A model generated the notes under the pieces. The model did no database searches. It was not told where the DNA came from and was given only the letters and a program-made list of their open reading frames with translations. Both the position numbers and the translations under genes were made by a program. Positions 5,253 to 62,646 of a stretch of DNA of 64,000 nt are shown in pieces. The stretch spans positions 178,622,001 through 178,686,000 of the forward strand of contig OZ024742.1 of NCBI GenBank assembly GCA_964016885.1, written 5' to 3'. Numbering within the stretch: the stretch's first letter is position 1; every line of letters starts with the position of its first letter. This stretch comes from Eledone cirrhosa. Taxonomy: Eukaryota.

Positions 5253-5390
5253 GAAAAGGATTCTAAATTGATAAAGTATTGGATATTAGCTGTATACTTT
5301 ATGGAATGTTCTTGCTTGCATAAATTCCACAGAACATTCCATAAAGTATACAGCTAATATCCAATACTTTATCAATTTAGAATCCTTTTC
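5253..5390. repeat. Perfect inverted repeat (60-bp arms, 18-nt loop)
   Basis: gaaaaggattctaaattg...ggaatgttct paired with agaacattcc...caatttagaatccttttc. Confidence 0.95.
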
Positions 5391-5808
5391 ATAAACTGGA
5401 AACATTCTCCCAATTTGTAGAAAACTTATAATGAAACAATTGTTTGGAAAGAGAGATATATTTTAACTTTAATTATATCTCATAAAATAATACAACTGGC
5501 TTTCCACAAAATACATATAGTTAGCACCCCAAACACTTAAATTGGGTTATACTAACATATAACCTAATGTTTGTTGAGTGAGATGGTTACCAGTCGGAGT
5601 TTAGCGTTAAGCTATCTCTGTTATTGTATTAATTATATATATATATATATATATATGTGTGTGTGTATGTATGAAAATAAGACCGTAGACCAATCCATGA
5701 CCTATATCTCTATATTCCGCGAACCAACAATGGACCGCACCAACCACAGGAAAGTGGAAGACAGATATTATCAAGCTACCGCTGTCATGTTACCTAGTTT
5801 CTGTAGAG

Positions 5809-6012
5809 TTGTTTCTACTTCAGGCACAAGGCCAGCAGTTTGAAGGTGAAGGGAAAGTCGATTAAATCGGCCCCAGTGCATTACTGGTGCTTTATTTATC
5901 GATCCCGTAAAGATGAAAGGCAAAGCTAACCTCGGCAGGATTTGAACTCAGAATGTAAAGGGACGAAACTATATGCTGTGAAGTATAGTGTCCGACGCTC
6001 TACTGATACTGC
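5809..6012 (-). mobile_element. tRNA-derived SINE (Meta/MESC-type central domain)
   Basis: Reverse complement carries B-box gagttcaaatcc, the gcctttcatc..cgggatcgataaa domain and the gctggccttgtgcc tail. Confidence 0.9.
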
Positions 6013-6054
6013 TTAGTTTCTATATAATAAAACTATTATTATTTCCAGCAACTA

Positions 6055-6270
6055 GAGCGGTGGATTGGCGGTATCGGTAGAGCGTCGGACTCCATGCTTT
6101 GTAGCATAGAGTTACGGTATTTTACAGTCTGAGTTCAAATCCCGCAGAGGTTAACTTTGCCTTTCATACTTACGGGGTCGATAAAATGAAGCACCAATAA
6201 TGTACTGGGGTCGATTTAATCGACTTTTCTCTCCCCTCAAAATTGCTGGCCTTGTGCTTATACTAGACAC
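6055..6270 (+). mobile_element. tRNA-derived SINE, same family
   Basis: ggtggattggcggtatcggtagagcgtcggac...gagttcaaatccc...gttaactttgcctttcat...cggggtcgataaaa. Confidence 0.9.
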
Positions 6271-59054: not shown

Positions 59055-59663
59055 TGTTGGCTGCCAACTCGTTTTCGAGTACGTCCACTACTTTATATCC
59101 ATGTAGGAGAACCCCTACCGATGCGCTGAACGAGTGTGACTTTTTAGTCCAGCCAGCGACTTGAAAACTCTGGTACAAACACTACACTTGTGGCAATTAT
59201 TGACACATAGTGCTGGGCCCATGGTACCATGTGACGACAAGTGCAGAGAGATCTCCAGATATAAAGCAATACCTGTGATGTGAAGCTTTTATAGTGAGCA
59301 AAGGCATTGCACAAAGCCAGTCCCACTCTCTTAACCAAGATGATATTTACCAAAAAGAAGAACAAGTCAACATCATTGGATACCATCAGGGTTGCAGGTG
59401 TTATATCAGAGTTTTCCTGCTCCTAGAATTCTGCCTTGACAAAGGCTAAGGGGTCATCTCTCCCGGTGATTTTGGATGGCCATTGACTCTTAAGAGCTCC
59501 TTTGCCCTTTGACAGGTTTTGTTTTTAGTCCTGCAGGATGTCCAAAGTCACCCTCCTCACCAAGAAACCTTGGTGGGGTTGCCAGTTTAGTCGCCAACGA
59601 CCCGACCATGAGACAGGTTGTACTGGGATACATGTTACCAGTAACACCAACTGGTGACCTGAC
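59055..59663 (-). mobile_element. Non-autonomous RTE derivative, 609 bp
   Basis: Inverted near-identical copy of 30673-31281 within (CATA)n. Confidence 0.88.
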
Positions 59664-61906
59664 ATAACATACATGCATATGTACATACATACATATGTGC
59701 ATACATACATATATACATACATACATTACATACATACATACATACATATGTACATACATACATATGTGCATACATACATATGTGCATACATACATATATA
59801 CATACATACATACATTACATACATATGAACATACATACATGTGCATACATACATATATACATACATACATACATTACATACATACATATGTACATACATA
59901 CATATGTGCATACATATATATATATATACATACATACATACGTACATACATACATGAATGCATACATATAGACATACTTATATACATACATAATTGCATA
60001 CATATTTACATGCACGCGTAAATACATATATACATACACACACAATTGGATACATACATACATACATACGTACATACATACATACATACATACATACATA
60101 CTTATATACATACATGCATACTTACCTACATACGTGCATATATGCATACAATATATACATACTTATATACAGGCATATTTACATACATACCTGCATATAT
60201 CTGAAATACATACACTCTTTCTCTCTGCATGTATGTATATATATACATATATATATATATATATATATATAGAGAGAGAGAGACAGTGAGTGAGAGAGAG
60301 AGAGAGGGAGTGAGAGAGAGAGGGAAGAATGAAAAGAAACACGTGCCGACGATATTTCTGGAGGGCGGACGTGTCACTCGCCTAACTCCATCCAATTTTA
60401 CCATTCTCCACTCTCTCTCTCTTTCACTACTCGTGTCTCTTCACTCTCTCCACAGTCCTCTCTCTGTCTCTCTTTCTCTTTCACGCCCTCATTCTCTTCC
60501 CCTCTCTTTCTTTAACTACTCCTATCTTCACTCTCTCCATTCTCTCTCTCTCTCACAACTCGTCTCTCTTCACTCTCTCCACAGTCCTCTCTCTCTCACA
60601 CCCCATCTCTCTTCACTCTTTCCACAGTCTACTCTCTTTCTCTCCCCCTCTCTCTCTCTCTCTCTGTCTACAGTTTACTGACTCTCTCTTCCTCCCTCCC
60701 GCTCTGTCTCTCTCTCTCTCTTTCAATACTCGTGTCTGCACTCCCTTCATACTTTCACTCTCACACCTCGTCTCACTTCACTCTCCCCACACTATCTCTC
60801 TCTCGCCCCCCTCTCTCTCTCCCTCTCCCCCTCTTTCTCCCTACTATACTCTCTCTCCACTCCACTTTCTCTTTACCACTCTATCCTACCCCTCTCTCTC
60901 TCTCTACCTCTAACACTAACTCTACATCTACCTCTACCTCTTACATTGCCCAGTTTTATACTATTCACAAGCTGAAGCACATCGGGGCTTCGGCCACCAA
61001 ATAACCCAGCATCGGATGAGGAGAGAGAAAAGCGTCAGTTTCTTGCCTCGGGAGAGACTGAAGTGAAACCATAGCAGTTAAAACCTTAATTAATCACTTA
61101 GCTAGTAATTCTGCAATTGAATATCCCAAATCTGTGTTCTTCCCAGTTTAAGAGCCTGTTAACATGATTTGTAGCCTGTTTCGTGAACTCACTTGCCCCC
61201 AAACTGAATAAGTGCCCGAAACAATGAAATTTCACTTAATTTGTAATTTTCAATAATAAAAAAAAACAAAACAAAAAAAAATAAAATAACAAAAACCAAA
61301 CAAAAGAAAGAAAAATCTTCTTCTTCTATCATTCCTTCGATCGTCCATTCGTTCGTTCTATCTTTCATTCGACCAATTGTGTGTTCCTTTATTCACTTAT
61401 TCATTATCTCATTTGTTTTGTTCATTCGTTTTATTTGTTTATTTGTTTGACATCCTTCCTTCGATACGTTGTTAGCTCTTTCGGTTTTAAGGTGTTCACT
61501 ATCGTCATTTTTTTTATATTCCTTCTTTCGTTTGTGTGTGTTCGTTTACTCGATCGTTCATTCACACATTTCTTTATTTCTTTATTTCTTTCTAATTTTC
61601 TTTCTTTCTTTCTTTCTTTCTTTCTTTCTTTCTTTCTTTCTTTCTTTCTTTCTTTCTTTCTTTCTTTCTTTCTTTTTGTCTTTTGGATATTCCCTTTCTT
61701 CGCTTCTTCGTTCCAACGATTCGTTACCTAGCGACATGGAAGACTCTTCATTACAATCATCGGCACCGATGACATTACCAAATAAAGATAGAATGTATTA
61801 ATTCATATATATATATATATGTAGAGGTTATATATAATTTGTTGGGATACAACAAGCAAAATATTTTTATAACTGATATAAAGCACTCAACAAATTATTG
61901 GAGTAA

Positions 61907-62294
61907 ATATACAATATATTAACAAATGGAAACTATATTTATAAAACCATATTTATTTCATTATACATATTTCAAGGGCCACCAAGGCAAACTATGGTGC
62001 GCTTTCATCAGATAAAATATAATATAGGTTAGTTTTATAAATAAATAAATATTGACATACCCTGAAAAAATGCAACCATTCTGGTTGCAACAAAAAATGC
62101 AACTATCCAGGAGATTCCAACCAGAATGGTTGCATTGTTTCAGTGTATGTCAATATTTATTTATAAAACTAACCTATATTATATTTTATCTGATGAAAGC
62201 GCACCATAGTTTGCCTTGGTGGCCCTTGAAATATGTATAATGAAATAAATATGGTTTTATAAATATAGTTTCCATTTATTAATATATTGTATAT
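61907..62294. repeat. Inverted repeat (about 170-bp arms) abutting (TA)n
   Basis: atatacaatatattaacaaatggaaac...ccattctggttg paired with caaccagaatgg...tttccatttattaatatattgtatat. Confidence 0.95.
62182..62247 (+). ncRNA. Minimal type I hammerhead (inverted copy 61954-62019 on -), same family as 3948
   Basis: tattttat-CTGATGA-aagcgcacca tagtttgcct tggtggccctt-GAAA-tatgta-TA-atgaaata. Confidence 0.85.
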
Positions 62295-62381
62295 ATATAT
62301 ATATATATATATGTATGAATGAAGTAATTCCGTCGGAAAAGTCCAGGAAAAAAGAGTGCTCTATGTAGGTAACAGAGCTTA

Positions 62382-62646
62382 ATAGTTATGTAATAAACAA
62401 CATAAGGCAATTATTCCATTTACCAGTGGTTTCTTAAAAGCAAAAAATTTTGCTTTCAATCATCAGAATGAAAAAATCCTGGTCTGTTTATTGAATTTGG
62501 ATTTTAAAAACCCAAATTTTTTAAAATCCAAATTCAATAAACAGACCAGGATTTTTTCATTCTGATGATTGAAAGCAAAATTTTTTGCTTTTAAGAAACC
62601 ACTGGTAAATGGAATAATTGCCTGATGTTGTTTATTACATAACTAT
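62382..62646. repeat. Inverted repeat (129-bp arms, 7-nt loop) abutting (TA)n
   Basis: atagttatgtaataaacaac...ttggattttaaaaa cccaaat tttttaaaatccaa...gttgtttattacataactat. Confidence 0.95.
62555..62614 (+). ncRNA. Type I hammerhead (inverted copy 62414-62473 on -)
   Basis: tttcatt-CTGATGA-ttgaaagcaaa attt tttgcttttaa-GAAA-ccactgg-TA-aatggaa; GUA triplet. Confidence 0.9.

What the first reader, a model, noticed from the sequence alone, without database searches (positions are those of the whole stretch)
5253..62646. About 16 long fold-back inverted repeats, usually anchored on a (TA)n tract
Seen at 5253-5390, 8965-9389, 9451/10806, 12356-12426, 12584-12871, 23574-23655, 24146-24631, 29516-29588, 49929-50024, 50142-50229, 50689-51573, 51050-51105, 54352-54424, 54439-54819, 61907-62294 and 62382-62646. 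Arms are much more similar to each other than to dispersed family members (compare 61954/62182 with 3948). Established: PLE insertions often carry an inverted, truncated pLTR. Inference: the hairpins form at integration by cDNA snap-back or template switching at self-complementary (TA)n, or arise during repair of breaks at TA cruciforms.
Basis: partly seen in the sequence, partly recalled or inferred. Interest (0 to 1): 0.75.

Follow-up and report, generated by a model that had tools for sequence, protein, structure and literature searches.

The report
Two-armed stubs of Penelope retrotransposons
Most of these DNA hairpins are real, short, mirror-image insertions of Penelope-type jumping genes in TA repeats (two are tiny DNA transposons and one is a local duplication), and their lopsided shape suggests they were likely made by copying one RNA from both cut ends of the chromosome rather than by one copy folding back.

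Summary
All 16 inverted repeats exist (arms 28-198 nt, 83-100% alike). They are of three kinds. Thirteen are head-to-head insertions of (TA)n-targeting Penelope-like elements (PLEs). Two of their families were linked to an RT plus C-terminal endonuclease ORF with Hydra-clade motifs. Twelve of the 13 have a family-specific tail (about 40-170 nt) on one arm only. Two repeats (12356, 29516) are fixed-length ~75-bp MITEs. One (54439) looks like a local duplication. The fold lies inside the element; (TA)n is the target. Inverted pLTRs with one-sided tails are published PLE anatomy. The geometry argues against simple snap-back. In 90 position-ordered copies of one family, 43 of 44 two-armed copies pair a tailed with a tail-less end. 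Seven copies join the tail alone to an inverted arm, and 3 carry an extra C on both arms at a likely RNA start. Best reading (0.6): both target strands prime on one RNA at the two known start sites, and the cDNAs join head to head. My searches did not find this in print. The scan's own notes report the same reading many times, here and in other genomes. No read spans the window's own junctions.

The parts
62314..62646 (.). IR16, family F16 PLE stub: tail (62314-62384, end A at (TA)n), arms 62382-62510 / 62518-62646, tail-less end B at (TA)44; type I hammerhead in each arm (62415-62472 minus, 62556-62613 plus)
   Evidence: 1,658 exact tail 25-mers; ORF link in L221, L223
61822..62297 (.). IR15 PLE stub: ~83-nt tail on the left, arms to end B at (TA)n; hammerhead in both arms; older copy at 3881-4048
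   Evidence: (42 loci)
49852..50024 (.). IR9, family F9 PLE stub: 77-nt tail, arms 49929-50024, end B at (TA)32
   Evidence: (31,054 exact tail 25-mers); ORF link L050/L225
8790..9396 (.). IR2: 168-nt tail (8790-8957), 194-nt arms, 51-nt spacer, end B at (TA)30
   Evidence: (5 loci)
9447..10947 (+). IR3: 89-nt inverted tail-less arm, then ~1.4-kb sense element with hammerhead-like motif (about 10743-10817, by eye) and ~140-nt tail to (TA)126
12581..13529 (+). IR5: inverted arm plus two direct pLTR-like copies (12723-12914, 13337-13529), tail about 40 nt; another copy at 11198-11498
   Evidence: 13 loci
23575..23796 (+). IR6: 39-nt perfect hairpin plus 140-nt tail, (TA)n on both sides; longer family copies fold elsewhere
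24146..24706 (+). IR7: 137-nt arms, spacer with hammerhead (24370-24412), 74-nt tail
   Evidence: (HH9, E 6e-6, below gathering score)
50087..50229 (.). IR10: 56-nt tail plus 40-nt arms of a multi-copy family
   Evidence: (19 loci)
50630..51573 (.). IR11: ~59-nt tail, 198-nt arms whose inner ends run into a TA tract holding IR12; right outer end not at TA; related copy at 19447-19658
   Evidence: (10 loci)
50983..51105 (.). IR12: 68-nt tail, 28-nt half-arms including a central (AT)n, end at (TA)n; only one relative found
54352..54480 (+). IR13: 33-nt arms plus ~56-nt tail; family copies fold at other points
   Evidence: (12 loci)
4119..5390 (-). IR1 (5253-5390) is the inner junction of a 5'-truncated PLE copy: the end of the ORF turns back for about 60-78 nt, then jumps to another element end; no TA at the hairpin
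   Evidence: (93-96% to L222, whose ORF carries RT and endonuclease motifs)
12353..12429 (.). IR4: ~75-bp MITE, same length and structure in the scored copies
29514..29590 (.). IR8: ~75-bp MITE with TTGGG...CCCAA ends in TA/AT-rich sites
54439..54819 (.). IR14: inverted duplicate of the IR13 tail end with its flanking (CT)n and (TA)n; spacer is a reverse copy of 54089-54125; likely a DNA-level local duplication
54203..54281 (-). Tail-only copy of family F9 between two (TA)n tracts

Best explanation
Thirteen of the 16 hairpins are short two-armed insertions of (TA)n-targeting Penelope-like retrotransposons, likely made when both cut strands of the target prime reverse transcription on one RNA at two different start sites and the two cDNAs are joined head to head. 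Shown: the elements, their target, the fixed outer ends A (tailed) and B (tail-less), variable inner junctions, and shared variants in the two arms. Inferred: (1) the endonuclease cuts both strands of (TA)n; (2) one end primes at A, the other at B, 40-170 nt upstream; (3) the A copy either stops at B (tail-only class) or displaces the B copy and runs on; (4) both often run to the same RNA 5' end or are trimmed to a short self-complementary word, which gives near-symmetric centres; (5) end joining with microhomology or a few added bases and fill-in finish the insertion. The two MITEs and IR14 arise otherwise.
For: Polarity: 43 of 44 two-armed F16 copies among 90 position-ordered rows pair A with B; 1 is A+A. 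F9: 21 of 29 sites are A+B, 1 is A+A (one of the 21 read by eye). B acts as a first-strand start: 6 of the 44, plus L143 by eye, join the bare tail (ending B-4 to B+1) to an inverted arm of 27 nt to ORF length; 8 more have a longer tail-less arm, in L118 and L150 carrying ORF sequence. F9 shows 3 such tail-only joins. 3,870 exact B-end-plus-TA junctions. At B+127, 16 of 22 unambiguous arm ends add a C, on both arms in L129, L140, L141 (6 of 28 rows dropped as palindrome read-through or off-site). The F9 hot spot sits at an initiator-like TTAGTC (motif recalled). Arms share subfamily variants: 257 of 287 sites against 59% between loci. 16-bp target duplication at L105. In vitro, a PLE protein cuts and extends both strands and starts at two sites that bracket the tail; a dimer is predicted (PMC11167929).
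Against: 28 of 44 two-armed F16 rows are symmetric within 10 nt, many centred on short palindromes, which snap-back explains as well. Four are longer on the tailed side, L009, L015/16 and L025 too, and long tailed arms with distant partners are missed in 46 of 90 rows. Deletion inside hairpins occurs (L113, L057, L044) and could shorten tailed arms after insertion. The extra-C signal is weak in F9 (11 of 27), and no RNA 5' end was mapped. Shared variants fit snap-back and later gene conversion equally. An ORF link was shown for 3 of 13 families only. The in vitro work is on a Poseidon element, not this clade.
Confidence: 0.6

Rival explanations
1. Snap-back: one cDNA, primed at A or at B, folds on itself at a short palindrome and is copied back; the second arm stops at B or is linked to a separately made tail.
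For: 28 of 44 symmetric centres at variable positions, often at TTTTAAAA, CCWGG or similar; palindromic added bases (L111, L141); arms share variants; self-priming was proposed from junction palindromes in PMC3846280.
Against: The A-primed form cannot give the 7 tail-only and 8 B-longer copies without later deletion; extra C on both arms with 0-7 bases between (L129, L140, L141) would need very tight loops. A B-primed form still needs a second priming event for the tail.
Confidence: 0.27
2. Hairpins arise after insertion, by DNA repair or template switching at (TA)n cruciforms.
For: IR14 duplicates flanking microsatellites and has a spacer copied from nearby DNA; L101/L102 is a tail-to-tail duplicate around (TA)17; IR12 and L168 have TA at the centre.
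Against: In the PLE stubs the second arm ends at one element-specific site in thousands of loci, holds no flanking host DNA, and can hold element sequence missing from the first arm.
Confidence: 0.05
3. The hairpins are themselves mobile foldback or MITE units copied whole.
For: True for IR4 and IR8. Two IR6-family loci (L308, L312) share one junction and a third (L304) a similar one.
Against: F16, F9, IR6, IR13 and IR15 families have different junctions from locus to locus and many one-armed copies.
Confidence: 0.05
4. Amplification or assembly chimeras.
For: No contig spans the window's own centres.
Against: Arms have diverged (83-100%); ends are family-specific; a 16-bp target duplication exists; Logan contigs of runs X1/X2 show arm-to-arm joints of the same families at depth about 6-48, and TA-joined B ends occur in runs of two other organisms.
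Confidence: 0.03

Closest known systems
EN+ Penelope-like insertions with an inverted 5'-truncated copy and one-sided tail (PMC3846280; PMC8557442 Fig. 2 legend)
   Same: Head-to-head inverted arms, tail on one end, junction palindromes, hammerheads, partial tandems (IR5), occasional target duplication.
   Different: Tails here are about 40-170 nt, against 30-40 nt in those papers; most insertions are 100-450-bp stubs; a tail-only plus inverted-arm class is common; the published explanation was self-priming, possibly on an antisense template.
Hydra clade of C-terminal EN+ PLEs (PMC8557442, section 11)
   Same: RWK, DKT, CxCX5C linker, CxxC and CxH, hammerheads, (TA)n target in F16 and/or F9.
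   Different: No tree was built; F16 spans about 6 kb with microsatellite-rich untranslated parts, against under 3 kb described; no canonical hammerhead found in the F9 stub.
Poseidon PAc of Anolis in vitro (PMC11167929)
   Same: Two reverse-transcription starts bracketing the tail; both strands cut; AT-rich target.
   Different: Other clade; that paper leaves the later steps and the inverted arm unexplained.
L1 twin priming (Ostertag and Kazazian 2001; seen only as a reference title in PMC3649969, content recalled)
   Same: Both target strands prime on one RNA and give a head-to-head join.
   Different: In L1 the second priming site is variable and the arms barely overlap; here it is fixed and the arms usually duplicate each other.
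Made1-type short MITEs of Tc1/mariner elements (PMC1784062, search listing and start of abstract only)
   Same: IR4 and IR8: ~75-bp near-palindromes of fixed length in TA sites.
   Different: No autonomous partner sought; TA duplication not shown with an empty site.

Membership tests
EN+ Penelope-like element | RT related to telomerase in a single ORF | tested here: met
   F16 pieces match P0004 (E 2e-31); the P0004 model hits reverse transcriptases including TERT (E 5e-8, DRT9 ranks as high). Shown for F16, F9 and the IR1 family only.
EN+ Penelope-like element | C-terminal GIY-YIG endonuclease | tested here: inconclusive
   Motifs visible in A1; F9 ORF aligns to it. Pfam GIY-YIG only E 0.035 in 1 of 9 homologues, none in the 8 local fragments.
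EN+ Penelope-like element | Hammerhead ribozyme in the pLTR | tested here: met
   Descriptor hits in IR7, IR15, IR16 and at 3950; 1 hit in 10 shuffles. By eye in IR3, IR6 and IR11 relatives. Not found in IR9, IR2, IR5, IR10, IR12, IR13. Cleavage not tested.
EN+ Penelope-like element | Inverted 5'-truncated copy with a tail at one end | tested here: met
   12 of the 13 window stubs.
Hydra clade | RWK, DKT, CxCX5C linker, CxxC and CxH, no CCHH | tested here: met
   Read by eye: RWK, DKT and CxCX5C in L221 (F16); CxCX5C, CxxC, CxH in L225 (F9).
Hydra clade | (TA)n target | tested here: met
Hydra clade | Phylogenetic placement of the RT | not tested
   No reference Hydra proteins were available; no tree built.
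Tc1/mariner MITE (IR4, IR8) | Fixed length with terminal inverted repeats | tested here: met
   Near full-length 89-95% matches of about 70-78 nt among the 40 scored candidates of each search.
Tc1/mariner MITE (IR4, IR8) | TA target duplication and an autonomous transposase with the same ends | tested here: inconclusive
   Flanks read TA/AT at most copies; no empty site or transposase sought.

The most novel reading that the evidence does not exclude
PLEs integrate by obligatory two-ended priming: a dimeric enzyme starts reverse transcription from both target strands at two fixed RNA sites, so the inverted arm and the one-sided tail are the normal product, and the hairpin centres record the capped 5' end of the RNA. 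This genome would hold on the order of 10^5 such footprints (rough extrapolation from 41 repeats in 300 kb), enough to map the reaction in vivo.
Probability: 0.5. Interest if true: 0.72.

Novelty: new variant of a known kind. Interest (0 to 1): 0.5.

Why it matters
How PLEs, the sister group of telomerase, make their inverted ends and tail is stated as open in PMC8557442 and PMC11167929. Tens of thousands of short young copies give countable classes (tail-only, B-longer, symmetric, cap-like C) that separate snap-back from two-ended priming and give exact predictions for the existing in vitro assay. The hairpins are also an abundant potential source of double-stranded RNA and fragile DNA (not tested). 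The anatomy itself is known.

Tried and rejected
Rfam: only below-threshold microRNA-type matches to generic hairpins and one weak HH9 among the 150 of 283 rows listed. Genome DNA searches with the tails alone found nothing because common words are skipped; exact patterns worked. Pfam and PDB sequence searches of local ORF fragments gave no informative hit. The protein atlas was unavailable. A mirror-repeat control gave 115 unmerged hits and was dropped as invalid; a block shuffle replaced it. Reads: no RNA holder listed; no contig spans the window's own junctions, and 9147-9188 has no cover at 98% likeness, which proves nothing; X1/X2 may be the source sample. Arm discordance as a sign of two RNAs: rejected, since 24 of the 30 discordant sites lie in the ribozyme stem II loop and 3 at the ragged outer end. 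A universal TAT microhomology at B: seen in several families but not all. Literature: 7 searches; none showed twin priming proposed for PLEs or these hairpins described in cephalopods; subscription papers, and the supplements of the papers read, were not seen.

Full report
Observation. All 16 repeats are present, with arms of 28-198 nt at 83-100% identity. Shuffled windows give none (5 of 5). Twelve of 16 have an outer end within 8 nt of (TA)5+. In 464 kb (window, 10 neighbouring and 30 distant 10-kb stretches), 51 of 88 repeats touch (TA)5+ against 7% of random intervals, 45 of them at one end only. The window is somewhat richer (18 in 64 kb) than distant DNA (41 in 300 kb).

What they are. 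Searching the own genome with single arms splits the list. IR4 (12356) and IR8 (29516) recur as whole ~75-bp hairpins of fixed length in TA/AT-rich sites, so they are MITE-like. IR14 (54439) duplicates flanking microsatellites and has a spacer copied from 54089-54125, so it looks like a DNA-level event. The other 13 belong to dispersed families (IR12 has only one relative). In 12 of them one arm continues as a tail to a (TA)n or other microsatellite tract (end A), while the other stops short at end B, usually at (TA)n. Tails are about 40-170 nt and family-specific. IR1 is the inner junction of a truncated ORF-bearing copy.

PLE identity. F16 (IR16) has 1,658 exact copies of a tail 25-mer and 3,870 exact B-plus-TA junctions; F9 (IR9) has 31,054 tail copies; reversed-pattern controls are 0. 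Long copies carry a broken ORF between A and B ends (L221, L223, L050/L225). Its homologues align as RT followed by an endonuclease-like domain, with weak Pfam RVT_1 and GIY-YIG hits in 1 of 9; a model (pLDDT 79) matches reverse transcriptases including TERT. RWK, DKT and CxCX5C fit the Hydra clade, which targets (TA)n (PMC8557442 section 11). A type I hammerhead descriptor hits IR7, IR15, IR16 and a copy at 3950. For the families without an ORF link, PLE membership rests on anatomy.

Geometry. I took 90 of the first 100 listed F16 tail matches in chromosome order (three pairs are duplicates of one event). In 44 rows an inverted end lies within the locus: 43 end at B, 1 at A. Of the 44, 28 are symmetric within 10 nt, 6 have the bare tail joined to an inverted arm, 6 have a longer tail-less arm, 4 a longer tailed arm. 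Three of the other 46 (L143, L118, L149) continue into sense-strand element sequence by eye; most of the rest are one-armed or run off the locus, so long tailed arms with distant partners are undercounted. F9 repeats the pattern: 21 of 29 sites A+B, 3 of them tail-only, 1 A+A. Among 30 B-anchored rows one locus is B+B. Fold points vary but cluster at B+95-101 (just ahead of the ribozyme) and B+122-134 in F16 and about B+50-62 in F9. At B+127, 16 of 22 clear arm ends add a C, on both arms in 3 loci. Arms share subfamily variants (257 of 287 sites; 59% between loci), so both derive from one template. One 16-bp target duplication is clear (L105).

Mechanism. A PLE protein cuts and extends both strands in vitro and starts at two sites that bracket the tail (PMC11167929, main text read). 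If each target end primes at one site on one RNA, the A+B pairing, the tail-only class, B-longer copies and twin extra Cs (read as copying of a cap; established for other RTs, recalled) follow directly. Symmetric centres follow if both copies reach the same RNA end or anneal at a self-complementary word. Snap-back explains symmetric centres equally well and was proposed, on an antisense template, in PMC3846280 (passages and Discussion); it needs later deletions for 15 of 90 rows. I put two-ended priming at 0.6 and snap-back at 0.27; they may coexist.

Artefact check. Logan contigs of runs X1/X2 show arm-to-arm joints of three families at depth about 6-48, and runs of two other organisms hold TA-joined B ends; none spans this window's own centres, and X1/X2 may be the source sample.

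Known and new. The anatomy is published (PMC8557442 passages). A 2026 retrozyme preprint has no passage on inverted arms, tails or priming (word search only). Seven searches found no twin-priming model for PLEs. The scan's notes hold the same reading many times, in this genome and others; I reached it before looking (note) and do not count the notes as support. Their bulged-hairpin motif lies 6-8 nt past B in 3 of 12 window tails strictly, 6 of 12 loosely; the Hydra assignment was their lead, checked here by motif.

Verdict. Real; mostly known PLE anatomy in extreme abundance, with countable classes that favour two-ended priming. New variant of a known kind; interest 0.5.

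Noticed in passing
   Followed up: partly
window 5807-6274, 25074-25792, 27614-28244: Inverted pairs of an abundant ~190-bp SINE-like repeat (about a dozen copies in the window); arms 76-92% alike, probably separate insertions.
   Followed up: no
window 53007-53393: Old 387-bp inverted repeat (71%), relatives in 3 of 40 stretches; possibly a MITE.
   Followed up: partly
window 13798-17229 and 39919-43533: Two LINE copies with endonuclease and RT frames on the minus strand, 73% alike; the second has a 763-aa open frame.
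   Followed up: no
window 59-445 (-): PLE ORF remnant close to the F9-linked ORF in L050.
   Followed up: partly
F16 arms, ribozyme stem II loop (window about 62442-62452): 24 of 30 arm-to-arm differences at polymorphic sites fall in this A/T-run loop: a mutation hot spot.
   Followed up: partly
L009, L015, L019, L111, L180 and many other flanks: Stubs of different TA-targeting families sit in chains, each in the TA tract next to another.
   Followed up: no
L004, L005, L011, L012, L026: F16 holds an older second copy of its own B end and ribozyme about 1.1 kb inside the element.
   Followed up: no
L191: Chimeric insertion: a B-ended F16 arm joined head to head to an arm of the IR15 family, which would fit joining of separately primed cDNAs.
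   Followed up: no
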